A stretch of 64,000 bases of DNA. Origin: a virus. Lineage: Duplodnaviria > Heunggongvirae > Uroviricota > Caudoviricetes. Where the stretch lies: IMG/VR virus record IMGVR_UViG_3300032007_000008. One strand, 5' to 3'. The notes below the pieces were generated by a model that was not told the origin of the DNA, searched no databases, and worked only from the letters and a program-made list of their open reading frames with translations. The position numbers were made by a program, and so were the translations under genes. Of this stretch, positions 23,573-39,746 are shown in pieces; the first letter of the stretch is position 1; every line of letters begins with the position of its first letter.

Positions 23573-24257
23573 TCCAGTAAAGCTTGTATATGGCGTAGTT
23601 GGAACTCAGAACACAGGAAAATCCACTTTCATTTCCGATGTAATAGCCGATTCCGAGACACGGACGGATAAGATGCTTCGATTCAAAAGCAGCGTCGTTG
23701 ACTATCGCGCCAAGATTCAGTCCCTTGGACTTGAGATAAACAGAAACGGAAACGAAGAGTGCCAAAAGATAATATTCGACACACTGTACGACAACGTTAT
23801 CTCATGTTCGAAAAAGACCGAAACCATGAGAACCATACTCGACAGAACGCCTCTGGATGCATTTGTGTATACGCTATGGCACAATGTGTATGGAACGAAT
23901 TGCATAAGTGACGAATGTATCGATGACATGTGGGACAAAACGGTATATTCGATGAGGATGCTGGACAGGATTATATGGATTCCTTTGAGAATGTGCGATG
24001 ATGTGGAGGTTGTCGATGACAAGTTTCGCGACACGAACCTTGATTACAGAAGACAGATTGATGAACTCTTCAACATGTGTTTGAGGATATTGCATTTCAA
24101 CTGCAAGATGGGGCAGATTTCATCGGTGTACGGTAGCCGTGAGACGCGAGTGCATGTATTGAACGTTTTTGAGGAAAACGACGCTTTGCAGAAAAATTCG
24201 TCAATTATCTCGTATGATGCCATACGGGAAATGATAAAGAACAGTGAGAAAAGGTAA
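23556..24257 (+). CDS. P-loop kinase (AAA_28/NadR-like nucleotide kinase)
   Basis: Walker A GTQNTGKST; DRTPLD; DDKFR lid. Confidence 0.75.
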   Translation: MRIGTNPVKLVYGVVGTQNTGKSTFISDVIADSETRTDKMLRFKSSVVDYRAKIQSLGLEINRNGNEECQKIIFDTLYDNVISCSKKTETMRTILDRTPLDAFVYTLWHNVYGTNCISDECIDDMWDKTVYSMRMLDRIIWIPLRMCDDVEVVDDKFRDTNLDYRRQIDELFNMCLRILHFNCKMGQISSVYGSRETRVHVLNVFEENDALQKNSSIISYDAIREMIKNSEKR

Positions 24258-24264
24258 AATAAAA

Positions 24265-25122
24265 ATGGCTGAAATCGACAATTTCAAGATTATTCGAAAC
24301 CTTCTGGAGTTTAGGCTGAATACCGATAGGTATGTTCTTCATATTTTGCGTCGTCCGAAGGATTGCAAGAGCGAAGGTTTCGAAAACACACTTGGGAGTA
24401 ATGAAAAGCAGAGACTGCTCCGAACATACTATATCAATTCGGTAGACTACTTCGACAGTAAAGAGACTGCCGTGAAGGAACTTTGCCGTATAAACAATGC
24501 ACGTGCATACATCATACCACAGGTACGAAACAACAAGACGTGCATGACGAATCTTCTGAGGATTACAATCGACAATCTCGAAAATCCGACAATAAAGCCT
24601 GAGCATCTCATAAGGGCTGCATATTGTGGAAAGGGTTCCACGACAGGTATCGACAAAGACCGCAAACGTTGGGTAGTTGACATAGATAGCGACAATATGC
24701 AGGGATTTAGCGTAAGTTCCATTCGAATGGCAATCTATGATAGCTTGGCAAAATCGAAAAGAGGAGATGCGGCAGTTTACGAACTTCCGACCAAAAACGG
24801 AATGCATTTCATAACACAGCCGTTTGACGTTAAATACGCAAGCAGCAAGTGTTTTATGCTGTTCAGCGATACAAAAAGCGGAATTGACCGTGAATTGGCT
24901 GCTGATTTTCTGAAAGAACACAAATGGAATGACGATATCATCAGTTCAATTCCTGAAAATCCATTCGAAATAGAAGGATTTTTCATAAATTTGCTTAAGA
25001 AGAATTCGATACCTGTAAATACCTTGCTTGGACAATTCAGAGAACGATGCAAAAAGACTTTTACAGGATGGCTTCATAAAACAGGAATGACTCTTTTATA
25101 CACGACAAAGGAAAATACATGA
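24265..25122 (+). CDS. putative AEP (primase-polymerase)-like protein
   Basis: WVVDID (DxD) and PTKNGMH (sxxGxH) motifs. Confidence 0.45.
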   Translation: MAEIDNFKIIRNLLEFRLNTDRYVLHILRRPKDCKSEGFENTLGSNEKQRLLRTYYINSVDYFDSKETAVKELCRINNARAYIIPQVRNNKTCMTNLLRITIDNLENPTIKPEHLIRAAYCGKGSTTGIDKDRKRWVVDIDSDNMQGFSVSSIRMAIYDSLAKSKRGDAAVYELPTKNGMHFITQPFDVKYASSKCFMLFSDTKSGIDRELAADFLKEHKWNDDIISSIPENPFEIEGFFINLLKKNSIPVNTLLGQFRERCKKTFTGWLHKTGMTLLYTTKENT

Positions 25123-25856
25123 ACGAAAACACACAAAACGGAATGATGGCGAATCCCGCACAACCGCCTCCTCAGCAGGAAAAGCCTGTAGGATGGGAAG
25201 ACTCGACGATAAAGAAATTCGTAGAAAACGAATATGCTTTAATGGACAAGAAGTGGCAGGAGCAGTACGATAAGGAGACGGACGAGAAAAGGCGCGAATC
25301 GCTGAAGGCAAACAAGGAGTATGGAAAAGTTGTCCACGATTGCGTCACACAGCTTCTAAAGCTGATGTTCGAGCAGGGGCATTCAGAGCTTTCCGCAGGA
25401 TTCACTCTCGCCGAGTTTTCCCGTTTGTCCAAGTTCAAGCCGCTTTCTCCGCTAACAGGAGAAGACGACGAGTGGCAGGATGTATATGAAAATAATGGGA
25501 AGACCATTCAGCAGAACAAGAGATGTTTCAGCATTTTCCGTGAAAAGGGGGACAACTCCACCGCAGAAAATTCAGAGGGTGTCGCATTCTCCGATGATGA
25601 AGGAAAGACGTGGTACACGAACTCCCATTCGAGAGTGAAGGTTTCTTTCCCATATTCCGTGCCTGATGAAATAGCAAGGAAAATCATAACAAAGGAAGAG
25701 AAAGAGGCAATGGACAAAGCTGATGAAGAAGCATGGAATGCATTCATCAAGGAGCATCCTGAATATGTCGAAAAGCTTCGTGCGATGAGACAGGAGCGTC
25801 CAAATGTTGATAATGGCGAAATGCCAAAGGCGAGCGAGGGGGCTAATGCCAACTGA
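25119..25856 (+). CDS. conserved phage hypothetical protein
   Basis: QGHS..SA, PLSPLTGEDDEW and QNKRC motifs. Confidence 0.6.
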   Translation: MNENTQNGMMANPAQPPPQQEKPVGWEDSTIKKFVENEYALMDKKWQEQYDKETDEKRRESLKANKEYGKVVHDCVTQLLKLMFEQGHSELSAGFTLAEFSRLSKFKPLSPLTGEDDEWQDVYENNGKTIQQNKRCFSIFREKGDNSTAENSEGVAFSDDEGKTWYTNSHSRVKVSFPYSVPDEIARKIITKEEKEAMDKADEEAWNAFIKEHPEYVEKLRAMRQERPNVDNGEMPKASEGANAN

Positions 25857-26755: not shown

Positions 26756-26783
26756 TGCATTATTCTTACTGTTGTGATATAAT
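26756..26783 (+). promoter_or_regulatory. sigma70-type promoter
   Basis: TTGCAT...TGATATAAT. The same TTGC...TG-N-TATAAT form recurs at about 14566, 27182, 29442, 34855, 39176, 41536 and 45865, and at 61516 on the minus strand. Confidence 0.6.
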
Positions 26784-27078
26784 AGTCGGCGTTTTCGGAA
26801 ATTCTTTAGTCGTTAGACGAAAAAAAAGTTCGAAGACTAAATAGGAACTGCAAATGAAGAAAGTACAACATAGTTTTATGACAGCATGCGGCGTCAGAGA
26901 GTCCACGAAAGCGGATTCGTTCGGACGCTTTGTGCAGGGACTGCTTTCTTCAGATATTGCATCCAAGGCATATGCAATAGGCGAAAGGGGCTTCTGATTA
27001 GGAATGGGATAAAGGTATAAAATAGTTCCACCAAAATCAGAAGCCGAATCCGAAAGGGTTCGGCTTAACTGTTGAAGA

Positions 27079-27154
27079 GGAGGTGTCGTATAGCCGGTCT
27101 GTACAGTGGACTGAAAATCCATCGGTGTTGGTTCGACCCCAACCGCCTCCACCA
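27079..27154 (+). tRNA. tRNA-Phe(GAA)
   Basis: Cloverleaf, loop ctGAAaa, ACCA end. Confidence 0.9.
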
Positions 27155-27181
27155 AAAGAGAAAGAAACTCTATAAAACTTG

Positions 27182-27274
27182 TTGCGGCAAAATGCCAAGT
27201 GTGGTATAATGGTCGCCGTAGCTGAAAAAAAAAGGCGAAAGCCTTTAGCTCTTTGACAATTGAATGTAGATGAC
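27182..27274 (+). promoter_or_regulatory. rrn-like promoter/leader: -35/-10, GC-rich discriminator, hairpin, boxA
   Basis: TTGCGG...TGGTATAAT-GGTCGCC; GGCGAAAGCC hairpin; GCTCTTTGACAAT boxA-like sequence. Confidence 0.75.
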
Positions 27275-27383
27275 TAGGGTTTAACGACCCTATGGAGAAG
27301 AAACATGGGTTTCTTCCGTCCGAAGTCCACAATGATTCGGAACATTCTTTGTCGTTCGGTTGCGGTAACGCAACCGACGAAAT

Positions 27384-27470
27384 GGAGGGTTGTTCGAATG
27401 GTAAGGAGCCGGTCTTGAAAACCGGTGGATGTAAAAAGTCTTGGGGGTTCGAGTCCCTCACCCTCCGCCA
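27384..27470 (+). tRNA. tRNA-Ser(TGA)
   Basis: Long variable arm, ctTGAaa, GCCA end. Confidence 0.92.
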
Positions 27471-27752
27471 TTGCATGTACGCCGATGAGGAGTAAAACTC
27501 AGTGCGCTTAATGTCAAACGATAGCTCAGTGACGAGAGTAGAGGTAACTCGTTCGGTCATTCACCATGATGGAAGGTTGGTTGGTGATGCGTCTTAGGAC
27601 GTAAGCCCATTCCCTTGCAGAGTTCAAGTCCTGCCAATGAGTGCGCACCCGAAATATTTTAGGGGATACATAGAACAGACGCGGAAAGGTCCGCGAAGCC
27701 TGTGCGAAATAAATAAGATATGCAGCAGGTCCCATTCGGAGGTCGGCATGCC

Positions 27753-27846
27753 AGACTCGTCAACTGCAATCCATAACCGCACTAGTGTGCTCCATACGTG
27801 AATCTGTCGGTAAACACATAAAATATAGACCGTCAAGCGAGTCTAG
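27753..27846 (+). ncRNA. CAGCAA-scaffold RNA (CTGCAA variant)
   Basis: AGACTCG...CGAGTCT-AG closing stem and ACTGCAA. Confidence 0.5.
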
Positions 27847-27855
27847 TTTCTTTTA

Positions 27856-27922
27856 AAGGCGCATACAGCAACAATATTTTATGCAATTGTTAGGGAACAG
27901 TCAAGCACAAAAACGCGCCTTG
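27856..27922 (+). ncRNA. CAGCAA-scaffold RNA with hairpin payload (GGG-containing loop)
   Basis: AAGGCGC-ata-CAGCAA...GCGCCTT-G. Confidence 0.65.
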
Positions 27923-27927
27923 GTAAT

Positions 27928-28010
27928 GGGATTATGGCGGAATTGGCATACGCAGCAGTTTGAGGGACTGTCCCTTTTGGGTGAGAGTTCGAATCTCTCT
28001 AATCCCACCA
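27928..28010 (+). tRNA. tRNA-Leu(GAG)
   Basis: Cloverleaf, ttGAGgg, ACCA end. Confidence 0.9.
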
Positions 28011-28014
28011 CAGA

Positions 28015-28099
28015 GCGGAATTGATGGAATTGGTAGACTTGGCGTCTTCAGACGGCGTTGCCAAATGGCGTATTGGTTCGAATCCAATATTCCGCACCA
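28015..28099 (+). tRNA. tRNA-Leu(CAG)
   Basis: Cloverleaf, ttCAGac, ACCA end. Confidence 0.9.
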
Positions 28100-28106
28100 C
28101 AAAGAT

Positions 28107-28183
28107 GCATCAATAGCTCAATCGGCCAGAGTACCTCCTTGCCATGGAGGATGTTACGGGTTCGAGTCCCGTTTGGTGCTCCA
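28107..28183 (+). tRNA. tRNA-Gly(GCC)
   Basis: Cloverleaf, ttGCCat, TCCA end. Confidence 0.92.
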
Positions 28184-28195
28184 CAATTTACGATT

Positions 28196-28308
28196 TAGAT
28201 GCGCACAGCGACTTTCATATCACGGTTTGTTTAGGTTCGACTCCTAAAGGCGATTCGGAGAAATCCGAGCGTGGAAGCGGTTCGATTGAGAACCGGCTCC
28301 GCATCTAG
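28196..28308 (+). ncRNA. CAGCAA-scaffold RNA with degenerate permuted tRNA (CAT-like loop)
   Basis: TAGATGCG-ca-CAGCGA...CGCATCTA-G; T arm TTAGG-TTCGACT-CCTAA; GAAA-capped hairpin. Confidence 0.6.
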
Positions 28309-28312
28309 CTTT

Positions 28313-28388
28313 GGGGACTTGGTAGAGCGGCTTCATATGCCTCACTGTCTATGAGGCGAGACGGGTTCAACCCCCGTAGTCCCCGCCA
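28313..28388 (+). tRNA. tRNA-Asp(GTC)
   Basis: Cloverleaf, ctGTCta, GCCA end. Confidence 0.88.
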
Positions 28389-28541
28389 TTCTAAACCGCA
28401 TTTGGCCAATGCGGAGCAAACGGCACCCCTGAGAGGTGGGCATCCGTGGAGAAATGCGGCTGGCGGTCTCATGAACCGCTTGTCTTCTCCTTGCCGGGGT
28501 AAGAGTCCTCACAATCTTCTCTGTTTCTTGTGATACTGAAT

Positions 28542-28618
28542 ACGGACTTGGTATATGTGGATTTGTGCCTCGGTCTCCAAAACCGAAGGAGCTTGTTCGA
28601 CTCAAGCAGTCCGTGCCA
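28542..28618 (+). tRNA. tRNA-Trp(CCA)
   Basis: Cloverleaf, ctCCAaa, GCCA end. Confidence 0.88.
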
Positions 28619-28626
28619 ATTCAAAT

Positions 28627-28700
28627 GGGCCGGTGATGTAATGGTAGCATGCGACCTTTGCAAGGTTGATGTCGGGGTTCGAATCCCCACGTGTCCACCA
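28627..28700 (+). tRNA. tRNA-Ala(TGC)
   Basis: ttTGCaa, G3.U70, ACCA end; irregular acceptor stem. Confidence 0.85.
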
Positions 28701-28908
28701 ACTTAGGCTAAAGCCTTGCTGTCATGTGCTTCTGCATGACAGCTCAATAGTAAATCAGGAGCTGGTGGAGGACTCCATGCTCAACCTCGCAATCGCGAGG
28801 AACCCGCGTTTCGCTCTTCCTTCGGGTTTAAATGAGGCAAAGAGCTGGTAGCAAACGTTGTCCTAAAGTTCGGAGGCCGTTGTAAGATTCGGCGAGAAAG
28901 GACGATAT

Positions 28909-29003
28909 TTTAGCCGTTGTCGGGGTTCGAATCCCATCGATGCCGAAAGCGAAAGCAGGCTCGTAATCATGCAGTGCGCATGAAGGAGGTATCAACGGCT
29001 AAA
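28909..29003 (+). ncRNA. structured RNA with T arm inside an 11-bp closing stem
   Basis: TTTAGCCGTTG...CAACGGCTAAA enclosing GGG-TTCGAAT-CCC. Confidence 0.5.
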
Positions 29004-29130
29004 GATTTTTTCTGCGGTCGAGTTCTGATATTCAAATATCATTCAAAAACACTCGCCAAAAAACGTCGGAAGCGAGACTAGGAGTTAGCGTCGAAATACG
29101 TGCGTCGGACGACAAGCTTCACTTTGAAAT

Positions 29131-29204
29131 GGGCCGCTAGTTCAGTGGTAGAACATCCCGTTCGCAACGGGAAAACCTGAGTTCGATTCTCAGCGTGTCC
29201 ACCA
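29131..29204 (+). tRNA. tRNA-Ala(CGC)
   Basis: ttCGCaa, G3.U70, ACCA end. Confidence 0.85.
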
Positions 29205-29212
29205 TTCTCATT

Positions 29213-29295
29213 GCTTCGGTAATTCCATAACGGGGAATGTCAATCCCACCCAGTAATGGAGGATTGAATCAGTTCGTAACTGTATCGGGGCTCCA
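29213..29295 (+). ncRNA. atypical tRNA-like RNA with CCA end and extended anticodon arm
   Basis: GCTTCGGT/ATCGGGGC acceptor + TCCA; ATTCC/GGAAT D stem; TCAATCC/GGATTGA arm. Confidence 0.55.
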
Positions 29296-29302
29296 ATTTA
29301 AT

Positions 29303-29376
29303 GGGCCGATAGTTCAGTGGTAGAATGCTTCAATGGCATTGAAGAGATGGCGGTTCGATTCCGCCCGTGTCCACCA
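29303..29376 (+). tRNA. tRNA-Ala(GGC)
   Basis: atGGCat, G3.U70, ACCA end. Confidence 0.85.
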
Positions 29377-29441
29377 TTCGGAGATGGCTGTGTTCTCAAC
29401 AGTCAACTGCGGCATCTCCGAAAAATTTTTCAAAAAACTGG

Positions 29442-29521
29442 TTGCGAAAAACGCAGTCATGTGCTATAATAGGCGGCGTTTCCGAAAGGAAGCTGGTTCT
29501 TTGACAATTGAATGTAGATGA
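29442..29521 (+). promoter_or_regulatory. second rrn-like promoter/leader with boxA
   Basis: TTGCGA...TGCTATAAT-AGGCGGCG; TTCCGAAAGGAA hairpin; GTTCTTTGACAATTGAATGTAGATGA, nearly identical to the first leader. Confidence 0.75.
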
Positions 29522-29525
29522 AGAC

Positions 29526-29591
29526 GGGTGTGTAGCTCAAGAAGAGCGTTCGTCTGAAAGATGTGGGTGTGAAATCCCACTACACTCACCA
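29526..29591 (+). ncRNA. anticodon-arm-truncated tRNA-like RNA with CCA
   Basis: GGGTGTG/TACACTC acceptor + ACCA, D arm and T arm; only TTC-gtct-GAA where the anticodon arm should be. Confidence 0.6.
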
Positions 29592-29666
29592 TGCGGAGTA
29601 TAGCAACGGTAGCTAATCAGCCTCATAAGCTGAAGGTCGGTGGTTCGACTCCACCCTCCGCTACCA
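29592..29666 (+). tRNA. tRNA-Met(CAT), initiator-like 1:72 mismatch
   Basis: ctCATaa; T1:T72 mismatch, but lacks the three G-C pairs of the initiator anticodon stem. Confidence 0.8.
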
Positions 29667-29741
29667 AGGAGGCCACAGCGCGGCATTAAGTTGCCGTTTC
29701 ATTAGTTTGCGTTATCATGCTCGCCGTAAGCTCTGTTAGAT

Positions 29742-29819
29742 AGGAGCGTAGCTCAGCCCGGTGAGAGCAGCATCCTTATAAGTTGTTGGTCGGTGGTTCA
29801 AATCCACTCGCTCCTACCA
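29742..29819 (+). tRNA. tRNA-Ile(TAT)
   Basis: Cloverleaf, ctTATaa, ACCA end. Confidence 0.8.
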
Positions 29820-29822
29820 AAT

Positions 29823-29898
29823 AGTCCTGTAAGCTAATTGGATAAACTTCAAGGCTACGAACCTTGTATTCCGGGTTCAAGTCCCGGTGGGACTGCCA
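29823..29898 (+). tRNA. tRNA-Arg(ACG)
   Basis: ctACGaa, GCCA end. Confidence 0.9.
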
Positions 29899-29905
29899 TT
29901 GCCGA

Positions 29906-30027
29906 AAGACGCACACAGCAATTCAACTTCTAAAATTCACTGTTAATGAAAAGGCGTGGGTTCGAATCCCGCAACCGCACGGCAAAGCGGTTTAGCTTAG
30001 TGGTAGAGCTTTAAAGAAGGCGTCTAG
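29906..30027 (+). ncRNA. CAGCAA-scaffold RNA carrying circularly permuted tRNA-Asn(GTT)
   Basis: AGACGC-aca-CAGCAA; anticodon arm ctGTTaa, T arm, 3' acceptor AACCGC, linker, 5' acceptor GCGGTT, D arm; GCGTCT-AG. Confidence 0.8.
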
Positions 30028-30263
30028 TTATTTAATTTCATGCAACGGCTGCTGTATCGATGATTTGCAGAATTCAAAGTTCTGTCAACAGACAATGACG
30101 CAATAATCGATATGGTTTTAACAGCGAAAGCCTTTGCAGACTTGCAACCGCCGAGGCAGATGGAGGCGGCGGACGATGGAGGGGTGTCGCTCACCCCGTT
30201 ATCCGTATGAACCATTGGGAGTGCTGCGTCCCGCTCAGCCCGTCGAAGACGGACAACGCAGAT

Positions 30264-30379
30264 AAGTCACATGCAGCAATTAAAATTCTCCACCATTTGG
30301 GGAAATAGCATAATTGGTTAGTGCGTCCGTCGAAAGGCGGAAGGTTCTGGTTCGAATCCAGATTTAAATTGGTGACTTG
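30264..30379 (+). ncRNA. CAGCAA-scaffold RNA carrying permuted, anticodon-less tRNA with Ala identity
   Basis: AAGTCAC-atg-CAGCAA; TTCTCC-ACCA precedes GGGGAAA; D arm; TCCGTC-GAAA-GGCGGA; T arm; GTGACTT-G. Confidence 0.75.
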
Positions 30380-30391
30380 TTTTCAATCTTT

Positions 30392-30457
30392 AAGACTCAT
30401 ACAGCAACAAGCTATAAGCAATTGACAGTTAATCAATCACGCTAATACCGAGTCTTG
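30392..30457 (+). ncRNA. CAGCAA-scaffold RNA with isolated anticodon arm (GTT)
   Basis: AAGACTC-ata-CAGCAA; ATTGA-caGTTaa-TCAAT; GAGTCTT-G. Confidence 0.75.
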
Positions 30458-30461
30458 CCTT

Positions 30462-30537
30462 GCCTTGATAACACAGTGGTTTAGTGTGTCAGCCTTCCAA
30501 GCTGAAGACACCGGTTCGAATCCGGTTCAGGGCTCCA
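30462..30537 (+). tRNA. tRNA-Gly(TCC)
   Basis: ctTCCaa, TCCA end. Confidence 0.9.
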
Positions 30538-30543
30538 TGATGA

Positions 30544-30631
30544 TGCTAGGTAGACCTGTAGGGAGCAGGGGCAGACTGTAAATCTGTTGTGTTAACGCAC
30601 CCTGTAAGTTCGACTCTTACCCTAGCAACCA
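30544..30631 (+). tRNA. tRNA-Tyr(GTA)
   Basis: ctGTAaa, long variable arm, ACCA end. Confidence 0.88.
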
Positions 30632-30805
30632 GAGAGGTGGCAGAAAAGCAGATGCAGTGTCTTTCGAGGACTGGCCATTGTCGATAATAGACGGTTTGTA
30701 AAAACGTTCCTTAAGGTTTCCGTCTGTGGTCAAGGAGTTAGCTACTCATGGAATTACCACTAATCGCATATGGCATTGGAGGTTCAAACCCTCCCCTCTC
30801 AACCA
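30632..30805 (+). ncRNA. tRNA-like RNA with large internal domain
   Basis: GAGAGG/CCTCTC acceptor + ACCA, D arm, T arm GGAGG-TTCAAAC-CCTCC, with ~115 nt between the D and T arms. Confidence 0.6.
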
Positions 30806-30806
30806 T

Positions 30807-30890
30807 TGGCATGTAGCGCGTATACGGTGATAGCTGCTCTTAAGTACATAGAGCCAACAAATGCGGGTTCGACTCCTGCCATGCCTACCA
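30807..30890 (+). ncRNA. atypical tRNA-like RNA with CCA
   Basis: GGCATG/CATGCC acceptor, T arm, and a GCTCT/AGAGC arm with a 9-nt loop. Confidence 0.55.
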
Positions 30891-30907
30891 TCCTCGGTGA
30901 TAACCAC

Positions 30908-31092
30908 CTTGGCAAAAACCCATACGAACGTGGTATGGTCGAGCTGTGAGAACAACGACACAGAGAGCAGTGGAACTTATATCCATGTAGCGACAGTTCT
31001 TCGTGACTGCCAGACGCGATATGAAATCCCTTGAATGGGTCTGGTTTCAGTGTGAGTGAGGCAGGCTACGCTGTGTAAAAGTCACTGCCAAG
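30908..31092 (+). ncRNA. multibranch structured RNA of unknown type
   Basis: CTTGGCA...TGCCAAG closing stem with several internal hairpins; no ORF. Confidence 0.4.
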
Positions 31093-31101
31093 ATTTTCAA
31101 T

Positions 31102-31357
31102 GGTGGATAGTTCAAATGTAACAGAATAAAGGGCATGTTCCGAGGGAACGAGGAGCAAGTAGTGTCACAAAAGGTGTGTGCAGTTCTTGACAATCTTCAC
31201 GCAGCGAGCCAGGTGACCCTGGGGTTGGCGAGTTTGGATTGGGATTGGAATGCAAGTTCTGTCCCAGTTGACCATAGGCTCTCGCCTTGAATTCGTTCGT
31301 ACTAAAAAATCCCCAAAGCCCCGCAAGACGGAGGGTGAAAATCCCTCGCCACCGCCA
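31102..31357 (+). ncRNA. tRNA-like RNA with ~180-nt insert at the anticodon position
   Basis: GGTGG/CCACC acceptor + GCCA, D arm, GGGC...GCCC stem and T arm GAGGG-TGAAAAT-CCCTC. Confidence 0.55.
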
Positions 31358-31364
31358 ATTTCAT

Positions 31365-31452
31365 CACGCCGTGCGCCGAATGGATAAGGCATCGGCCTTC
31401 TAAGCCGACGGGAGTTTTCCCATTGCAGGTTCGAGTCCTGTCGGCGTGGCCA
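31365..31452 (+). tRNA. tRNA-Arg(TCT) with long variable arm
   Basis: ctTCTaa; GGGAGTTTTCCC variable arm; GCCA end. Confidence 0.85.
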
Positions 31453-31505
31453 TGGAACTCTGATAAATCGTAACGGTAATAATGACTCTTTCGGAATATG
31501 AAATT

Positions 31506-31591
31506 GGAGAAGTGCGATAATGGTATTCGAGCGGCTTGCTAAGCCGTGGGGTTAAGAGCCTCTCCCGGTTCGAGTCCGGGCTTCTCCGCCA
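31506..31591 (+). tRNA. tRNA-Ser(GCT)
   Basis: ttGCTaa, long variable arm, GCCA end. Confidence 0.9.
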
Positions 31592-31595
31592 CGAA

Positions 31596-31683
31596 GCTCC
31601 TGTGGCGAAACTGGCAGTACGCATGGGGCTTAAACCCCCAGCCCGGTATCGGGGTAGGGGTTCGAATCCCCTCTGGAGCACCA
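31596..31683 (+). tRNA. tRNA-Leu(TAA)
   Basis: ctTAAac, ACCA end. Confidence 0.9.
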
Positions 31684-31687
31684 AGAT

Positions 31688-31763
31688 GTTCCGATAAGCT
31701 AACAGGACAAACTTCTGCACTCCTAATGCGGGTTTGACGGTTCGAGTCCGTCTCGGAATACCA
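31688..31763 (+). tRNA. tRNA-Arg(CCT)
   Basis: ctCCTaa, ACCA end. Confidence 0.85.
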
Positions 31764-31768
31764 ACTAT

Positions 31769-31850
31769 GCTAGAGTGGTGGAACGGCATACACAGTGGCT
31801 TCAAATACCACGGCTTCGGCATATGGGTTCAAATCCCATCTCTAGTACCA
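31769..31850 (+). tRNA. tRNA-Leu(CAA)
   Basis: ttCAAat, ACCA end. Confidence 0.9.
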
Positions 31851-31854
31851 AACT

Positions 31855-32009
31855 AAGGCAGATACAGCAAACATTGTTTTGTAAATAAAAAATGCTAAAC
31901 AATACCCAGACTGCGGGTTAAAGCCGTCAAACGCATCAATCAAGCATGGCGTTGTTATGCTGACAGTTTCGATTGCTACGTACTTCTGTAAAAAGCGAAA
32001 ACTGCCTTG
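31855..32009 (+). ncRNA. CAGCAA-scaffold RNA, long subtype with GTA anticodon-like hairpin
   Basis: AAGGCAG-ata-CAGCAA...GTTTCGATTGC...CTT-ctGTAaa-AAG...CTGCCTT-G. Confidence 0.65.
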
Positions 32010-32062
32010 GTGTCTCCGACGGGACACAACGCGCCGAAGGGCATCGGTGCAAAGCTATTTCA

Positions 32063-32183
32063 AAGATGCCAACAGCATATTCATTCAGCCTGGTAAGCTC
32101 GTGGTTACGGGTTCAAATCCCGTTGGACTGGCGAAAGCTGGTCTATAGCTCAATCTGGTAGAGCGCGTATATATGGCATCTTG
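32063..32183 (+). ncRNA. CAGCAA-scaffold RNA carrying circularly permuted tRNA-Thr(GGT)
   Basis: AAGATGCC-aa-CAGCAT; AGC-ctGGTaa-GCTCG, T arm, acceptor closed by GAAA, D arm; GGCATCTT-G. Confidence 0.82.
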
Positions 32184-32190
32184 TCTTTTT

Positions 32191-32272
32191 GGGTATGTGG
32201 TGGAATGGCATACACGGCAGATTTAGGTTCTGTTGCGAAAGCATGGGGGTTCGAATCCCTCCATACCCACCA
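32191..32272 (+). tRNA. tRNA-Leu(TAG)
   Basis: ttTAGgt, ACCA end. Confidence 0.9.
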
Positions 32273-32284
32273 CAAACTAGCAAT

Positions 32285-32359
32285 TGGCGATTAATATAAC
32301 GGTTATTATGGAACGCTGATACCGTTCTCACGATAGTTCGACTCTATCATCGCCAACCA
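32285..32359 (+). tRNA. tRNA-Ile(GAT)
   Basis: ctGATac, ACCA end. Confidence 0.82.
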
Positions 32360-32360
32360 A

Positions 32361-32448
32361 TGCGGCATGTCGCAAGACCGTGGGTTCGAATCCCACCTCC
32401 AGACAGAATGAGCTGGGCGTGACTGAGCAGGATTAAGGTGATGCCGCA
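32361..32448 (+). ncRNA. permuted tRNA-like RNA opened at the anticodon (YrlA-like topology)
   Basis: TGCGGCAT...ATGCCGCA stem enclosing a variable arm, T arm, loop-closed acceptor and D arm. Confidence 0.6.
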
Positions 32449-32455
32449 ACACTTT

Positions 32456-32794
32456 GGGGGTGAACAGGTTTTCGACTGTATCATTCCGTAGAAGATGGCA
32501 ATTCGGACAAGCATGATGCCCGTTAAAGCATATGCGAAAAAAAGTAAACGGCAACGATTACAGAATGGCTGCTTAAGCCGACGAAAGGGAATGACCTCCG
32601 ATAGCTCCTGAGTAGTTTCATCATCGGAGCGGCTTCGCGAAGTTTGGCCTTCATAGCGCGGCGGCACATCAAGGCTATAGGGGAAACGAGGTCTGTGTCT
32701 CTCGCCAACCCGAAATCGATGACACGATGAATGATTGTAGCAAGTCTTCGAACGAAGTTATAGGACGCGGGTTCGATTCCCGCCACCTCCACCA
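32456..32794 (+). ncRNA. ssrA: tmRNA
   Basis: GGGGGTG...TTCGAC 5' end; GACGCGGGTTCGATTCCCGCCACCTCCACCA 3' end with G3.U70; tag frame ...GNDYRMAA*. Confidence 0.93.
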
Positions 32795-32798
32795 ATAT

Positions 32799-32874
32799 GC
32801 TGGGTTGGCTGAACGGTTAACGCGCCGTCCTTGTAAGACGGAGAATGGGGTCTCGGAATCCTCACCCAGCTCCA
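32799..32874 (+). tRNA. tRNA-Thr(TGT)
   Basis: ctTGTaa, TCCA end; atypical T loop. Confidence 0.8.
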
Positions 32875-33072
32875 TTTGCGGTTCTCGATTTACCGAGCAT
32901 AGAAAAATCGTAGCGCAACGGTAGGTGCGTAGCCAGCCGTGTCTATGACCGGCACCGTGGACTTTCGGGATTTCCCATGGTCAAGGCACATCAGTGAACT
33001 TAAGATAGCTGTTGTGACAAATTCGGCTTCTCCAAAGTCTTCTCCCATACCGTAGGGGGAGGCAAAATTCCT

Positions 33073-33223
33073 AAGACGTGAAACTGCAACAAAACAGGAA
33101 TACGCTAATCCGATGGTCGTAGGTTCAAATCCTACCTGTGCGGCAAACGGGTGATTCCGTCCCGCACGGTAGCTCAGCGGTTAGAGCATCGGACATTTCT
33201 ACGCCTTGTGCGTTCGCGTCTTG
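33073..33223 (+). ncRNA. CAGCAA-scaffold RNA (CTGCAA variant) with permuted tRNA opened in the anticodon loop (GCT)
   Basis: AAGACGTGAA...TTCGCGTCTT-G; GCTAA-TCCGA, T arm, CTGTGCGG/CCGCACGG acceptor, D arm, TCGGA. Confidence 0.78.
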
Positions 33224-33235
33224 TGATTTCTGAGT

Positions 33236-33312
33236 GGTGATGTGCTACAGTGGCCTACTAGACCCGCCTCATACGCGGAGGTTCATTGGTTCGAATCCAA
33301 TCGTCACTACCA
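33236..33312 (+). tRNA. tRNA-Met(CAT) (elongator Met or Ile2)
   Basis: ctCATac; ACCA followed by a second CCA. Confidence 0.78.
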
Positions 33313-33319
33313 CCAAATC

Positions 33320-33394
33320 CCTTTGGTAGTTCAACGGCTAGAATAGAAGATTGTGATTCTTCGGACGTGGGTTCGACTCCCACCCATCGGACCA
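33320..33394 (+). tRNA. tRNA-His(GTG), irregular acceptor
   Basis: ttGTGat; two acceptor mismatches, A73, and no G-1:C73 pair. Confidence 0.7.
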
Positions 33395-33522
33395 TTTCGG
33401 ATGAAAGGTACTTACGCATCGAACAGGAGTTCGAGTCTCCGGCGTGACGGTTCGATTCCATAACGCGCAGGTGCAAAATGCGGAACGTTCTGACTGGACA
33501 GGCTTCCAAAACCCTTTCTAAT

Positions 33523-33610
33523 GGAAAGTTGTCAGAGTGGTTTAACGTACTCCGTTCGAAGCGGAGAGGGTGTAAAAGCTCCGCAGGTTCGAATCCTGCA
33601 CTTTCCGCCA
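33523..33610 (+). tRNA. tRNA-Ser(CGA)
   Basis: ttCGAag, long variable arm, GCCA end. Confidence 0.9.
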
Positions 33611-33613
33611 AAT

Positions 33614-33701
33614 GGAGGGATATTCTAATTGGTAAGGAGCCATCTTGGAAAGGTGGTGGGGTTAATAGCCCTTGGGAGTTCGAACCTCCCTCTCTCCGCC
33701 A
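33614..33701 (+). tRNA. tRNA-Ser(GGA)
   Basis: ttGGAaa, long variable arm, GCCA end. Confidence 0.9.
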
Positions 33702-33730
33702 TTTCTCCGAGAAAGAAAACACTTGCATAT

Positions 33731-33816
33731 GCAGACCGTGTATGCTAAATTCGGGTTTCGAAAGGAACTTTCGCAAATTTGGGGGTGGGGTACGAGTCCT
33801 CATAAGGTCTGCACCA
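33731..33816 (+). ncRNA. CCA-ended tRNA-like RNA without recognisable anticodon
   Basis: GCAGACC/GGTCTGC + ACCA; TGGGG-TACGAGT-CCTCA T-like arm; GAAA-capped internal hairpin. Confidence 0.45.
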
Positions 33817-33820
33817 TAAT

Positions 33821-33895
33821 GCTCCTGTCGAATAACGGTAAGTTCGACTGCTTCTCACGCAGTAGACCAGGGTTCAACTCCCTGCTGGAGTGCCA
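33821..33895 (+). tRNA. tRNA-Glu(CTC)
   Basis: ttCTCac, GCCA end. Confidence 0.88.
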
Positions 33896-34019
33896 TAGAC
33901 ATAAACAGCAATTAAAGCTCTTATCAAACCGGTTATGGCGGTTCGAATCCGTCGCTCCGAGGAAACTTGGAACTCGTCTAATGGCTAGGACTCTGGTCAG
34001 CGAAAAGAATTATGTCTAG
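33896..34019 (+). ncRNA. CAGCAA-scaffold RNA with permuted tRNA opened in the anticodon loop (ATC-like)
   Basis: TAGACATA-aa-CAGCAA; ttATCaa-ACCGG, T arm, acceptor closed by GAAA, D arm GTCT/GGAC, CTGGT; TATGTCTA-G. Confidence 0.78.
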
Positions 34020-34024
34020 CATTT

Positions 34025-34099
34025 GCTGGATTGGCTGAGAGGTTAGGCACTTCACTCGTAATGAAGCTCACGGAAATTCGAGTTTTCCATCCAGCTCCA
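34025..34099 (+). tRNA. tRNA-Thr(CGT)
   Basis: ctCGTaa; A53:U61 T stem; TCCA end. Confidence 0.85.
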
Positions 34100-34174
34100 G
34101 CTGAGTTGGCTGAGAGGTTAGGCACTCCCTTGGTATGGGAGATTACGAAAATCCGAGTTTTTCACTCAGCTCCA
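34100..34174 (+). tRNA. tRNA-Thr(GGT)
   Basis: ttGGTat; A/U-rich T stem; TCCA end; abuts the previous tRNA. Confidence 0.82.
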
Positions 34175-34179
34175 AAAAT

Positions 34180-34255
34180 GGGAGTATAGCTCAATTGGCA
34201 GAGCAGCAGACTCTTAATCTGCGGGTTCGGGGTTCGATTCCCCGTGCTCCTACCA
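34180..34255 (+). tRNA. tRNA-Lys(CTT)
   Basis: ctCTTaa, ACCA end. Confidence 0.92.
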
Positions 34256-34267
34256 TTTCGACGAAAT

Positions 34268-34342
34268 TCGGGATTATCTCAACGGCAAGAGTCCCTCCTC
34301 GACACGGAGGGTATGGATGTTCGATTCATTCATCCCGAACCA
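34268..34342 (+). tRNA. tRNA-Val(GAC)
   Basis: tcGACac (C33), ACCA end. Confidence 0.82.
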
Positions 34343-34352
34343 TTTACCATAT

Positions 34353-34429
34353 GGCCGGTTAGCTCAGCAGGTTAGAGCATCTGTCCTACACACAGAATGT
34401 CGGGGGTTCGATTCCCTCATCGGCTACCA
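34353..34429 (+). tRNA. tRNA-Val(TAC)
   Basis: ccTACac (C33), ACCA end. Confidence 0.88.
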
Positions 34430-34431
34430 TC

Positions 34432-34493
34432 AAGACGCTATCAGCAATCTTCAACCTTGGTTTATTCATACAAATCGCCTAACATGCGTCTTG
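34432..34493 (+). ncRNA. CAGCAA-scaffold RNA with short CAT-loop hairpin
   Basis: AAGACGC-tat-CAGCAA...ttCATac...GCGTCTT-G. Confidence 0.68.
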
Positions 34494-34497
34494 CTAT

Positions 34498-34576
34498 GGC
34501 GGCTTACCCAATACTGGAATAGGGAATGGTCTGCAAAACCATTTTAATGAGGGTTCGATTCTCTCAGCCGTCTCCA
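34498..34576 (+). tRNA. tRNA-Cys(GCA)
   Basis: ctGCAaa, TCCA end. Confidence 0.88.
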
Positions 34577-34579
34577 TAT

Positions 34580-34654
34580 GCGGCCATAGCAAAACGGTTA
34601 TGCACCTGACTTTTAATCAGGGATACGTGAGTCCGACTCTCACTGGCCGTACCA
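34580..34654 (+). tRNA. tRNA-Lys(TTT)
   Basis: ctTTTaa, ACCA end. Confidence 0.88.
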
Positions 34655-34661
34655 TCCAAAG

Positions 34662-34737
34662 TGTCCTGTAGTATAACCAGGTAGTACAGGAGAATTTGAG
34701 TCTTTTGGTCTGGGTTCGAATCCCGGCGGGACAACCA
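34662..34737 (+). tRNA. tRNA-Gln(TTG)
   Basis: atTTGag, U1-A72, ACCA end. Confidence 0.85.
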
Positions 34738-34748
34738 CGGATTATCAT

Positions 34749-34822
34749 TGGGGGTTAGTATAATGGTAGTACAGCTGACTCTGACTCAGCTTGAGGAGGT
34801 TCGAATCCTCCACCCCCAACCA
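34749..34822 (+). tRNA. tRNA-Gln(CTG)
   Basis: ctCTGac, U1-A72, ACCA end. Confidence 0.9.
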
Positions 34823-39266: not shown

Positions 39267-39438
39267 TAGATGGTTACAGCAAAATACTATACTCAAACCA
39301 TGAGACTAGTTATTCGACGTTCGGCTAGGGGTGTGAGTCCCCTTGCTTTGGAGAACGGCGGTGATACTTGTAGGCTGCTGCACAATGCAACCTTCCGGTT
39401 TCGATTGCCTCAATCTTCCGTAAAAAGCCGCCATCTTG
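39267..39438 (+). ncRNA. CAGCAA-scaffold RNA, long subtype with GTA anticodon-like hairpin
   Basis: AGATGG-tta-CAGCAA...GTTTCGATTGC...CTT-ccGTAaa-AAG...CCATCT-TG. Confidence 0.65.
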
Positions 39439-39483: not shown

Positions 39484-39551
39484 TAGACGCTTGCAGCAAT
39501 TCCTTTTTCTAACTGAACTGCTAATTCACAACTAGAGAAAAAGGCGTCTTG
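39484..39551 (+). ncRNA. CAGCAA-scaffold RNA with isolated anticodon arm (GCT)
   Basis: AGACGC-ttg-CAGCAA; CTTTTTCT/AGAAAAAG stem; TGAA-ctGCTaa-TTCA; GCGTCT-TG. Confidence 0.75.
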
Positions 39552-39577: not shown

Positions 39578-39655
39578 GCCTCAGTAGGCAAACTGGCTAC
39601 AGCCGTCGCCCTTTCACGGCGAAGTTTGCGGGTTCGAGCCCCGCCTGAGGTGCCA
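39578..39655 (+). tRNA. tRNA-Glu(TTC)
   Basis: ctTTCac, GCCA end. Confidence 0.88.
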
Positions 39656-39659
39656 AATA

Positions 39660-39736
39660 CGGAATGTCGCACAGCCTGGTAGTGCATCTGCTTTGGGAGC
39701 AGACCGTCGGGGGTTCAAATCCCTCCATTCCGACCA
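39660..39736 (+). tRNA. tRNA-Pro(TGG)
   Basis: ttTGGga, C1-G72, ACCA end. Confidence 0.92.
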
Positions 39737-39746
39737 AAGACCATAT

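What the first reader, a model, noticed from the sequence alone, without database searches (positions are those of the whole stretch)
29906..34019. Circularly permuted tRNA genes in a phage, with conserved breakpoints
Seen: elements at 29906, 32063, 33073 and 33896 (and a degenerate one at 28196) read anticodon arm, T arm, 3' acceptor, linker, 5' acceptor, D arm. In 29906 (GTT) and 32063 (GGT), joining the ends rebuilds perfect 5-bp anticodon stems broken at the same 28/29 position (TT|TCA..TGAAA and CG|AGC..GCTCG). In 33073 and 33896 the break is in the loop just after C32, and both 5' halves end stem-CA. Acceptors are closed by a GAAA tetraloop (32063, 33896) or a short linker, with no CCA. 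Established: permuted tRNA genes are known in some algae and archaea, where a BHB-recognising endonuclease processes them. Inference: these are either precursors matured by cleavage and ligation at the scaffold, or non-chargeable full-shape tRNA mimics. The GNRA-closed acceptors, and normal Asn(GTT), Thr(GGT) and Ser(GCT) genes nearby, favour mimics.
Basis: partly seen in the sequence, partly recalled or inferred. Interest (0 to 1): 0.86.

Follow-up and report, generated by a model that had tools for sequence, protein, structure and literature searches.

The report
Phage tRNA look-alike small RNAs
The "back-to-front tRNA genes" are real, but they are most likely sealed, unchargeable tRNA look-alikes carried on a shared RNA "handle", a phage relative of the Y RNAs that partner Ro60-type proteins, rather than genes for working tRNAs.

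Summary
Elements at 29907, 32064, 33074 and 33897, plus a degenerate one at 28197, read anticodon part, T arm, loop-closed acceptor, D arm.

- **tRNA shape.** Un-permuted in silico, they score as tRNAs as well as this phage's real tRNAs do. The tRNA core is intact, and the 15:48 tertiary pair covaries in 7 of 7.
- **Not chargeable.** They lack CCA, have 6-9 bp sealed acceptors, show no bulge-helix-bulge (BHB) splice motif, and duplicate normal tRNA genes.
- **Closest published kind.** This is YrlA, the Y RNA described as resembling a permuted tRNA with a closed acceptor. Six of eight elements have it as best Rfam match, but at 30-40 bits against a threshold of 69. They lack its Ro60 motif and, unlike YrlA, keep an anticodon loop.
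- **Shared handle.** All sit on a 6-bp clamp helix (AGRY...RYCU-WG) followed by ACAGCAA. Twelve RNAs in this window and five in a related phage carry it.
- **Other phages.** I found the same handle in Felix O1 and in a KVP40-like phage, near a Ro60-like DUF2828/DUF7788 gene. No such gene lies in this window.

This scan has found the handle family before on other DNA. New here are the full anticodon arms and the two fixed insertion points.

The parts
29907..30027 (+). Element A: handle RNA carrying a complete tRNA mimic with an intact anticodon loop CUGUUAA (GUU)
   Evidence: Parts located: P1 29907-29912 with 30020-30025; ACAGCAA 29915-29921; P2 29927-29931 with 30015-30019; anticodon hairpin 29937-29951; T arm 29956-29972; acceptor hairpin 29973-29992 (6 bp, 8-nt loop); D arm 29995-30009; positions 27-28 at 30011-30012. 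The minimum-energy fold gives the same arms. Un-permuted it is called Asn(gtt) at 120%. Rfam YrlA 30.9 bits.
32064..32183 (+). Element B: handle RNA carrying a tRNA mimic with anticodon loop CUGGUAA (GGU)
   Evidence: P1 32064-32071 with 32174-32181; ACAGCAU 32072-32078; anticodon part 32087-32101; T arm 32107-32123; acceptor hairpin 32124-32145 (9 bp with three G-U pairs, GAAA loop); D arm 32148-32164; positions 27-28 (CG) at 32166-32167. Un-permuted it is called Thr(ggt) at 120%. YrlA 36.2 bits.
33074..33223 (+). Element C: handle RNA whose tRNA mimic is opened in the anticodon loop after C32 (GCUAA displayed)
   Evidence: P1 33074-33078 with 33217-33221; ACUGCAA 33083-33089; helix P3 33096-33101 with 33195-33200; loop plus anticodon 3' strand 33102-33113; T arm 33119-33135; acceptor arm 33136-33169 (8 bp plus an inner hairpin); D arm 33172-33187; TCGGA-C 33189-33194; extra hairpin 33201-33213. 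YrlA 35.4 bits across the whole model. The orthologue L001:34-175 is 73% identical, with compensatory changes in the anticodon, T and P3 helices.
33897..34019 (+). Element D: handle RNA whose tRNA mimic is opened after C32 (U-AUC-AA displayed)
   Evidence: P1 33897-33904 with 34010-34017; ACAGCAA 33905-33911; loop plus anticodon 3' strand 33920-33932; T arm 33937-33953; acceptor hairpin 33954-33973 (8 bp with one A.C mismatch, GAAA loop); D arm 33976-33991; CTGGT-C 33993-33998. Un-permuted it is called Asp(atc) at 110%. No Rfam match. The probable counterpart L001:883-1001 scores 40.3 bits on YrlA.
28197..28308 (+). Element E: handle RNA with a degenerate tRNA-like cargo
   Evidence: P1 28197-28203 with 28300-28306; ACAGCGA 28205-28211; T arm 28230-28248; GAAA-capped hairpin 28254-28269; a further hairpin 28278-28295 stands where the D arm should be. 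No un-permuted construct is called as a tRNA.
27753..27846 (+). Handle RNA W1 (ACUGCAA variant, cargo not tRNA-like)
   Evidence: 8-bp closing helix, 3' tail AG.
27857..27922 (+). Handle RNA W2 (minimal, 64 nt)
   Evidence: P1 AGGCGC/GCGCCU, ACAGCAA, 3' tail UG; ends 7 nt before tRNA-Leu.
30393..30457 (+). Handle RNA W5 (minimal), cargo is a 5-bp stem with a 7-nt loop CAGUUAA
   Evidence: ends 6 nt before tRNA-Gly.
31856..32009 (+). Handle RNA W6 (152 nt, other cargo)
   Evidence: P1 AGGCAG/CUGCCU, ACAGCAA, 3' tail UG.
34433..34493 (+). Handle RNA W11 (minimal; UCAGCAA)
   Evidence: P1 AGACGC/GCGUCU; lies between tRNA-Val and tRNA-Cys, 6 nt before the latter. L1d sits at the same position, upstream of tRNA-Cys, in L001.
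39268..39438 (+). Handle RNA W10 (169 nt) ahead of the second tRNA cluster
   Evidence: P1 AGAUGGU/GCCAUCU, ACAGCAA. A similar start is at L001:10706.
39485..39551 (+). Handle RNA W12 (minimal; GCAGCAA)
   Evidence: P1 AGACGC(UU)/(AG)GCGUCU, 3' tail UG.
29442..29470 (+). Sigma-70-like promoter (TTGCGA-17-TATAAT with TG), the only strong + strand promoter match upstream of A-D
   Evidence: None of the promoter matches in the scan lies directly ahead of A, B, C or D, so they are probably co-transcribed with the tRNAs (inference).

Best explanation
These are not genes for working tRNAs. They are the cargo domains of a family of small structured RNAs made from the tRNA operon.

Each RNA is closed by a conserved handle:
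- a 6-9 bp clamp helix that always starts AGRY and ends RYCU, followed by W-G;
- directly after the 5' strand, a mostly unpaired ACAGCAA.

In A-D the handle carries a full L-shaped tRNA look-alike. The acceptor end is sealed by a loop, so it cannot be charged.
- In A and B the handle enters through the 5' strand of the anticodon stem (28/29) and leaves an intact 7-nt anticodon loop.
- In C and D it enters the loop after C32 and leaves the anticodon bases in an internal loop.

Shown: the anatomy, its conservation and covariation, the tRNA-grade core, and the same handle in Felix O1 and a KVP40-like phage near a Ro60-like DUF2828/DUF7788 gene.

Inferred:
- The RNAs are freed when RNase P cuts the next tRNA, usually 6-7 nt downstream.
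- The handle docks on a Ro60-like ring protein, as Y RNAs do.
- The tRNA-shaped part recruits or soaks up a tRNA-binding factor, probably in phage counter-defence or RNA surveillance.
For: tRNA shape:
- Canonical 5-bp T stems with UUCRANU loops, U8, A14, G18G19 and 4-bp D stems in all seven tRNA-like elements.
- The Levitt pair is G15:C48 three times and A15:U48 four times.
- 96.3% of cells pair, 12 of 20 pairs change on both sides, 0 of 500 shuffles reach this, and slid controls give 28-43%.
- Un-permuted constructs score like real tRNAs.

Not chargeable: acceptor hairpins of 6-9 bp closed by 4-18 nt, with no CCA.

Under selection: C is 73% identical to its orthologue in a phage whose Hsp70 is 79% identical. 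That is within the 66-86% range of orthologous tRNAs.

Handle:
- Six base pairs form in 17 of 17 elements, with covariation at four positions, and G is invariant two bases after the helix. Zero of 5000 shuffles reach the observed pairing.
- The motif gives 15 hits against 3.5 expected. The 10 true copies are all on the + strand in tRNA regions; the other 5 lie outside them.

Y RNA link:
- Rfam YrlA is the best match for six of eight elements, at 29.9-40.3 bits. Dimeric tRNAs score 22-23 bits.
- YrlA is described in print as resembling a circularly permuted tRNA with a closed acceptor (10.1101/312249; PMC4201824).

Partner lead:
- Felix O1 has four handle RNAs (AGACC..UACAGCAA..GGUCUGG), one of them tRNA-like, just downstream of ORF42. 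ORF42 is DUF2828 plus DUF7788.
- Vibrio phage V09 has a handle RNA 3.2 kb upstream of its homologue.
- The Felix-like Bas63 gp130 is reported to be Ro60-like in structure and to counter the Ppl defence (10.1101/2024.10.10.617714).
Against: - No TROVE, DUF2828 or DUF7788 protein was found in the 40 window ORFs I scanned, which include every ORF of 400 aa or more. None appears in the 10 kb left of the window, and tblastn with Felix ORF42 finds nothing. The other roughly 220 kb of the contig could not be read.
- Two of the four phage lineages I checked showed no handle within 4 kb of their DUF2828 gene.
- YrlA membership fails on score and on the GNCGAA motif.
- There is no transcript, binding or processing evidence.
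- Comparative depth is only two phages of this lineage plus paralogues.
Confidence: 0.68

Rival explanations
1. Free-standing decoys. The handle only protects the ends, and the tRNA-shaped or anticodon-loop cargo acts on its own. It would work as a sponge for host tRNA-targeting defences (anticodon nucleases and the like) or for tRNA-modifying enzymes, with no Ro60-like protein involved.
For: - No Ro60-like gene in the 64-kb window.
- The cargoes display anticodon-type 7-nt loops: CUGUUAA, CUGGUAA, AUAUCAU, and CAGUUAA in the minimal W5.
- The phage carries over 40 tRNAs, a tmRNA, and Tad3 and PARP-like conflict genes.
Against: - A purely protective stem would not need an invariant AGRY/RYCU-WG sequence and an ACAGCAA motif kept from Felix O1 to this phage. 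That points to a specific binding partner.
- In C and D the anticodon loop is opened, which makes a poor substrate mimic.
Confidence: 0.17
2. True circularly permuted tRNA genes. The closing helix brings the ends together, an endonuclease and a ligase join them, and RNase P, 3' trimming and CCA addition open the acceptor loop to give working tRNAs.
For: - Un-permuted sequences score as tRNAs.
- The split anticodon stems are perfectly complementary.
- M. smegmatis YrlA, with a 7-bp acceptor, is cut by RNase P and receives CCA (PMC4201824).
- L1b in the relative has a perfect 7-bp acceptor.
- A relative at about 67% Hsp70 identity has a T4-type RNA ligase next to its Hsp70 gene.
Against: - No bulge-helix-bulge: leader and trailer pair only in P1 and P2, and the exon ends pair with a third strand (reading).
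- Acceptors are 6, 9, 8 and 8 bp, two are capped by GNRA loops, and none has CCA. The normal tRNA genes I inspected encode CCA.
- Normal genes exist for Asn(gtt), Thr(ggt), Ser(gct) and Asp(gtc).
- ATC is not a natural bacterial anticodon.
- Seven RNAs share the handle but have no tRNA-like cargo.
- No ligase or splicing endonuclease was seen in the window.
Confidence: 0.05
3. Structured spacers. The elements are decayed tandem-tRNA remnants kept only as processing or insulating hairpins that help RNase P or protect operon fragments, with no function of their own.
For: - Ten of 17 elements end 6-9 nt before the next tRNA, and several start 1-5 nt after the previous one.
- A tandem duplicate of a tRNA gene contains a permuted copy at its centre (inference; compare the dimeric-tRNA origin model in 10.1101/312249).
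Against: - The tRNA core and the Levitt pair are kept intact with compensatory changes, and divergence matches that of functional tRNAs.
- A conserved single-stranded ACAGCAA is not needed for a spacer hairpin.
- The same handle occurs far from any downstream tRNA: A, W6 and W10 here, and F3 and F4 in Felix O1.
Confidence: 0.08

Closest known systems
YrlA, the tRNA-like Y RNA of bacterial and mycobacteriophage Ro60/Rsr (Rfam RF02553; Chen et al. 2014, PMC4201824; Wang et al. 2018, 10.1101/312249)
   Same: - A terminal stem encloses a variable region, T arm, loop-closed acceptor and D arm.
- The tRNA tertiary nucleotides and a covarying Levitt pair are present.
- Acceptor length varies and there is no CCA.
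- It is described in print as resembling a circularly permuted tRNA.
- It is the best Rfam match for six of eight elements.
   Different: - Scores are 30-40 bits against a gathering score of 69.
- The GNCGAA Ro60 motif is replaced by AGRY clamp plus ACAGCAA.
- YrlA lacks an anticodon loop. These elements keep a 5-bp anticodon stem and a whole (A, B) or opened (C, D) loop.
- There are five tRNA-like copies (one degenerate) plus seven sister RNAs inside a tRNA array, instead of one or two within 4 kb of a TROVE gene.
- No TROVE gene lies in the window.
Handle RNAs in the tRNA arrays of Felix O1-type and KVP40-type phages, near a DUF2828/DUF7788 'RNA-binding' (Ro60-like) gene. I found no paper describing the RNAs. 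The protein is discussed for Bas63 gp130 in 10.1101/2024.10.10.617714.
   Same: - The same clamp (AGAC...GUCU plus G) and ACAGCAA.
- The same position and strand inside tRNA arrays.
- A mix of minimal RNAs of about 60 nt and one tRNA-like member.
   Different: - In Felix O1 the gene lies directly upstream. Here no such gene is in 64 kb.
- Felix O1 has four copies and this window has twelve.
- The tail is GG in Felix O1 and WG here.
Circularly permuted tRNA genes of Cyanidioschyzon merolae and other algae, and of one archaeon (from my own knowledge)
   Same: The 3' half is encoded before the 5' half, with pairing between leader and trailer.
   Different: Those genes have a BHB motif, are circularised and then opened at a 7-bp acceptor, and they supply needed tRNAs. 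None of these features is met here.
Dictyostelium Class I RNAs (Rfam RF01414; Kjellin et al. 2021, PMC7919456)
   Same: - About 60 nt, with a 6-bp stem joining the ends.
- Start AAG and end CU-G, with the G:C pair conserved.
- An unpaired conserved motif right after the 5' strand that ends C-A-A.
- Variable remainder.
- Felix O1 minimal handles hit RF01414 end to end at about 20 bits.
   Different: - They are eukaryotic nuclear genes.
- RF01414 gives no hit on the window's own W1/W2 stretch at E up to 10.
- The explicit motif CCUUACAGCAA is from my memory and was not confirmed in the text I could read.

Membership tests
YrlA (Rfam RF02553) | Reaches the family's gathering score (69 bits) | tested here: not met
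   A 30.9, B 36.2, C 35.4, L1a 29.9, L1b 40.3, L1c 36.6 bits; D no hit.
YrlA (Rfam RF02553) | Terminal stem enclosing T arm, loop-closed acceptor stem and D arm in that order, with tRNA tertiary nucleotides | tested here: met
   The Levitt pair covaries in 7 of 7.
YrlA (Rfam RF02553) | GNCGAAN0-1G Ro60-binding motif near the 5' end | tested here: not met
   The 5' strands read AGRYnn(nn)ACAGCAA and hold no consistent GNCGAA.
YrlA (Rfam RF02553) | Encoded within about 4 kb of a TROVE (Ro60) gene on the same strand | tested here: not met
   No PF05731 hit in the 40 scanned ORFs of the 64-kb window. The rest of the genome could not be read.
Phage handle RNAs (Felix O1 type) | Clamp helix AGRY...RYCU followed by a conserved G, with ACAGCAA just after the 5' strand | tested here: met
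   17 of 17 elements. The same is seen in Felix O1 four times and in Vibrio phage V09 once.
Phage handle RNAs (Felix O1 type) | Lies in a tRNA array on the tRNA strand | tested here: met
Phage handle RNAs (Felix O1 type) | A DUF2828/DUF7788 Ro60-like gene nearby | tested here: not met
   No PF11443 or PF25043 hit, and no tblastn hit with Felix ORF42 in the window. The remaining roughly 220 kb of the contig is untestable here.
Circularly permuted tRNA genes (algal/archaeal type) | Bulge-helix-bulge motif formed by leader and trailer at the junction | tested here: not met
   By inspection. Junction strands are unequal (for example 5 nt against 2 nt in A), and the exon ends pair with a third strand.
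Circularly permuted tRNA genes (algal/archaeal type) | Processable 7-bp acceptor giving a CCA-ended tRNA | tested here: not met
   Acceptors are 6, 9, 8 and 8 bp, GAAA caps B and D, and there is no CCA. Processing itself is not testable with these tools.
Circularly permuted tRNA genes (algal/archaeal type) | Un-permuted sequence scores as a tRNA | tested here: met
   ARAGORN calls persist to 110-120% thresholds. This was a best-of-many-constructs search, so it is optimistic.
Dictyostelium Class I RNA (RF01414) | Match to the Rfam model | tested here: not met
   No hit at E up to 10 on W1/W2, or at E up to 5 on the array. Felix O1 handles reach about 20 bits against a gathering score of 41.5.

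The most novel reading that the evidence does not exclude
The dozen handle RNAs form a display set. One protein-docking handle presents interchangeable tRNA parts: whole L-shaped mimics with an intact anticodon loop, mimics with the loop held open, and bare anticodon stem-loops. Each would be tuned to bind or jam a different host tRNA-targeting enzyme. That would make this an RNA-based, multi-target counter-defence system, evolutionarily linked to Y RNAs and perhaps to the unexplained Class I RNAs of social amoebae.
Probability: 0.22. Interest if true: 0.85.

Novelty: new variant of a known kind. Interest (0 to 1): 0.66.

Why it matters
Y RNAs that mimic tRNA are known, but their effector is not. 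The published ones also lack an anticodon loop.

Here a phage keeps several sealed tRNA mimics under selection. They retain anticodon arms and are opened at two fixed points, and all sit on a handle that recurs in model phages such as Felix O1 and Bas63, near a Ro60-like protein. A preprint links that protein to escape from a bacterial defence.

This gives a testable route to what tRNA-like Y RNAs bind, and to a possibly widespread phage ribonucleoprotein. It also warns annotators that 'permuted tRNAs' in phage arrays are probably not tRNA genes.

Tried and rejected
**Whole-genome context**
- No genome is held for the window.
- The window's own 291,589-bp contig has no DNA on hand. Only 10 kb more of gene list was seen on the left, and the right-edge look-up failed.

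**Relatives**
- No close phage in INPHARED or in IMG/VR by Hsp70.
- An exact element-A pattern and a C-type pattern gave 0 hits in IMG/VR.
- The C-type pattern gave 0 hits in JGI metagenomes.
- Only L001 helped.
- L006 (Hsp70 81% identical) has DnaJ upstream and no tRNAs.
- The 251-kb relatives have Cpn10-Clp-Hsp70 contiguous, with no array between them.

**Family-wide DNA pattern.** I designed none that was both specific enough and had at least 14 fixed bases.

**Partner protein in the window.** Pfam, PHROGs and tblastn gave nothing. The ESM Atlas look-up on the 421-aa ORF at 43436 returned a poor model and no Ro60-like match.

**Structure ideas**
- I could not place a second conserved helix (P2) consistently across elements.
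- ACAGCAA has no conserved pairing partner.
- I considered readings of the handle as a k-turn, an Hfq ARN motif, a MazF site (ACA), a promoter or a terminal inverted repeat. None could be tested, and covariation plus strand bias argue for an RNA role.

**ARAGORN brute force.** It is permissive, so only the best-threshold calls are meaningful. L1b's best call was an artefactual Phe(aaa) with a long insert.

Full report
**Setting**

The window is part of a jumbo-phage-like genome. Its own contig is 291,589 bp, and no DNA was available outside the window.
- A tRNA array runs from 27079 to 34822, with a second small cluster at 39578-39830.
- ARAGORN finds 38 tRNAs plus a tmRNA at 32456-32794. Rfam adds four more tRNA-like hits.
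- The array lies between Tad3-Cpn10-Clp and Hsp70 genes.
- More distant 251-kb relatives have Cpn10-Clp-Hsp70 contiguous. In this lineage the array therefore looks like an insertion.
- The four normal tRNA genes I read encode CCA.

**The observation**

Each reads, 5' to 3':
- one strand of a closing helix, then ACAGCAA;
- the 3' part of an anticodon arm, a T arm and a hairpin made of both acceptor strands;
- U8-A9 (U8-C9 in D), a D arm, the 5' part of the anticodon stem and the other strand of the closing helix.

In A and B the anticodon stem is split between positions 28 and 29, and joining gives perfect 5-bp stems. In C and D the stem is whole and the helix leaves the loop right after C32.

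A related phage (L001, Hsp70 79% identical) carries matching elements:
- an orthologue of C (L1a, 73% identical, also upstream of tRNA-Met);
- a D-like element (L1b);
- a third stem-break element (L1c, broken at 29/30).

All four loop-break elements end their 5' part with stem-C.

**Is it tRNA-like beyond chance?**

- I cut and rejoined each element at all plausible points and ran ARAGORN at rising thresholds. They were still called at 120% of the default threshold.
- D and L1c gave Asp(atc) at 110-115%, and C tied on Ser(gct) at 115%. The window's 38 real tRNAs drop out between 100% and 125%. This is a best-of-thousands search, so it is generous.
- All seven tRNA-like elements have 5-bp T stems with G53:C61, UUCRANU loops, U8, A14, G18G19 and 4-bp D stems.
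- The Levitt tertiary pair covaries: G15:C48 three times and A15:U48 four times.
- On a MAFFT alignment, the closing, anticodon, T and D helices pair in 96.3% of cells. Shuffles give 82.7% (0 of 500) and slid controls 28-43%. Twelve of 20 pairs change on both sides.
- Folding energies alone are unremarkable to moderate, with z from -1.1 to -4.6.

**Why they are not working tRNA genes**

- The acceptor arms are 6, 9, 8 and 8 bp in A-D. They are closed by an 8-nt loop, GAAA, an 18-nt linker with its own hairpin, and GAAA. None has CCA.
- Normal genes for Asn(gtt), Thr(ggt), Ser(gct) and Asp(gtc) are present.
- ATC is not a natural bacterial anticodon.
- Leader and trailer pair only with each other in the closing helix, and the exon ends pair with a third strand. 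There is therefore no bulge-helix-bulge.
- I saw no splicing endonuclease or RNA ligase in the window.
- The elements are not decaying either. C and its orthologue are as similar (73%) as orthologous tRNAs of the two phages (66-86%), with compensatory changes.

**The published analogue**

- A relaxed Rfam scan gave YrlA (RF02553) as the best match for A, B and C, and for all three L001 elements, at 29.9-40.3 bits. The gathering score is 69, and tandem tRNAs score 22-23 bits. D has no hit.
- The YrlA model has the same order of arms.
- Chen et al. 2014 (PMC4201824) and Wang et al. 2018 (10.1101/312249) describe YrlA as a tRNA mimic with a loop-closed acceptor of variable length. In their words it resembles circularly permuted tRNAs.
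- YrlA differs in three ways. It lacks an anticodon loop, it carries a GNCGAA Ro60 motif, and it lies within about 4 kb of a TROVE gene. None of these holds here.

**The handle**

The pattern AGRY-N4-ACAGCAA occurs 15 times (one mismatch allowed) against 3.5 expected. The 10 true copies all lie on the + strand in tRNA regions; the other 5 hits lie outside them.
- Counting the ACUGCAA variants, the window has twelve elements and L001 has five.
- In 17 of 17, six base pairs form. Pairs 1-2 are invariant (A:U, G:C) and pairs 3-6 covary. The base two positions after the helix is always G. Zero of 5000 partner shuffles reach the observed pairing.
- Seven of the window's twelve carry no tRNA-like domain. 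Several of those present a lone stem with a 7-nt loop.
- Ten of 17 end 6-9 nt before the next tRNA. No promoter match precedes A-D apart from one at 29442-29470. They are therefore probably co-transcribed and released by tRNA processing, which is an inference.

**Link to other phages**

Notes from earlier sessions of this scan said that a stem-plus-ACAGCAA handle recurs beside a Ro60-like gene in Felix O1-type and other phages. I tested this.
- Felix O1 (NC_005282) has four elements at 23872-24704: AGACC..UACAGCAA..GGUCUGG. One has a T arm and a D-like arm. They lie just downstream of ORF42.
- ORF42 matches Pfam DUF2828 and DUF7788.
- Homologues of ORF42 occur in 710 phage records.
- Vibrio phage V09 has one handle RNA right after a tRNA-Ser, 3.2 kb upstream of its homologue. 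Acinetobacter phage ME3 and a 735-kb uncultured phage showed none within 4 kb under my strict scan.
- A preprint reports that the Felix-like Bas63 gp130 is structurally Ro60-like, counters the Ppl defence, and may use Y RNAs hidden among the tRNA genes.
- I found no paper that describes the handle RNAs themselves.
- The handle also resembles Dictyostelium Class I RNAs as described by Kjellin et al.. Felix O1 minimal handles hit RF01414 end to end at about 20 bits. The window's own W1/W2 stretch does not.

**What remains open**

- No TROVE, DUF2828 or DUF7788 protein is encoded in the scanned ORFs of the window or in the 10 kb to its left. About 220 kb of the genome could not be examined.
- The partner protein, the release by RNase P and any counter-defence role are therefore inferences.

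**Verdict**

The elements are a new variant of the Y RNA/YrlA kind: handle-borne, sealed tRNA mimics that keep anticodon arms, opened at two conserved points. This scan has met the handle family before on other DNA.

Noticed in passing
window 32361-32448: An 8-bp stem (UGCGGCAU/AUGCCGCA) encloses a GCAA-capped hairpin, a T arm and further hairpins, with no ACAGCAA. It lies directly upstream of the tmRNA. A weak Rfam 'permuted tmRNA' hit (32.4 bits) spans 32220-32576.
   Followed up: partly
window 28909-29003: An 11-bp stem (UUUAGCCGUUG/CAACGGCUAAA) encloses a T-arm-like GGGGUUCGAAUCCC and other hairpins. This is another tRNA-derived structured element without the handle.
   Followed up: no
window 30632-31364: A stretch of about 730 nt inside the array holds no called tRNA but has tRNA-like pieces, including T loops at 30782 and 30867 and a weak Rfam tRNA hit at 30807-30887 (22.9 bits). 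It may hold tRNA-shaped RNAs with large inserts.
   Followed up: no
window 32456-32794: Phage-encoded tmRNA (Rfam 106 bits; tag peptide GNDYRMAA) embedded in the tRNA array.
   Followed up: no
window 29303-29373, 29526-29588, 30303-30365, 32799-32871: Four Rfam tRNA hits (35.8-47.5 bits) that ARAGORN did not call. The hit at 30303-30365 matches only model positions 5-66.
   Followed up: no
window 25119-25856, 46527-47759, 19261-20244: Conflict and RNA-related genes near the array: a Tad3 (Thoeris inhibitor) homologue, a WGR-PARP-like protein, and a weak MTPAP-like nucleotidyltransferase hit.
   Followed up: no
L001:5465-7742: The related phage has a resolvase plus an IS605-type OrfB/TnpB inserted between Hsp70 and a split Dam methylase. 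This insertion is absent from the window.
   Followed up: no
L008 (Felix O1) 23873-23939 and 24040-24097: The minimal handle RNAs of Felix O1 hit Rfam Dicty_Class_I_RNA (RF01414) end to end at about 20 bits (E about 1), exactly at the element boundaries.
   Followed up: partly
window, all handle RNAs; L001: Ten of 17 handle RNAs end 6-9 nt upstream of the first base of the next tRNA. That spacing suggests coupling to RNase P cleavage.
   Followed up: partly
window 26766-27560 (- strand): A 264-aa ORF called by the public gene caller overlaps tRNA-Phe and tRNA-Ser on the other strand and is probably spurious.
   Followed up: no
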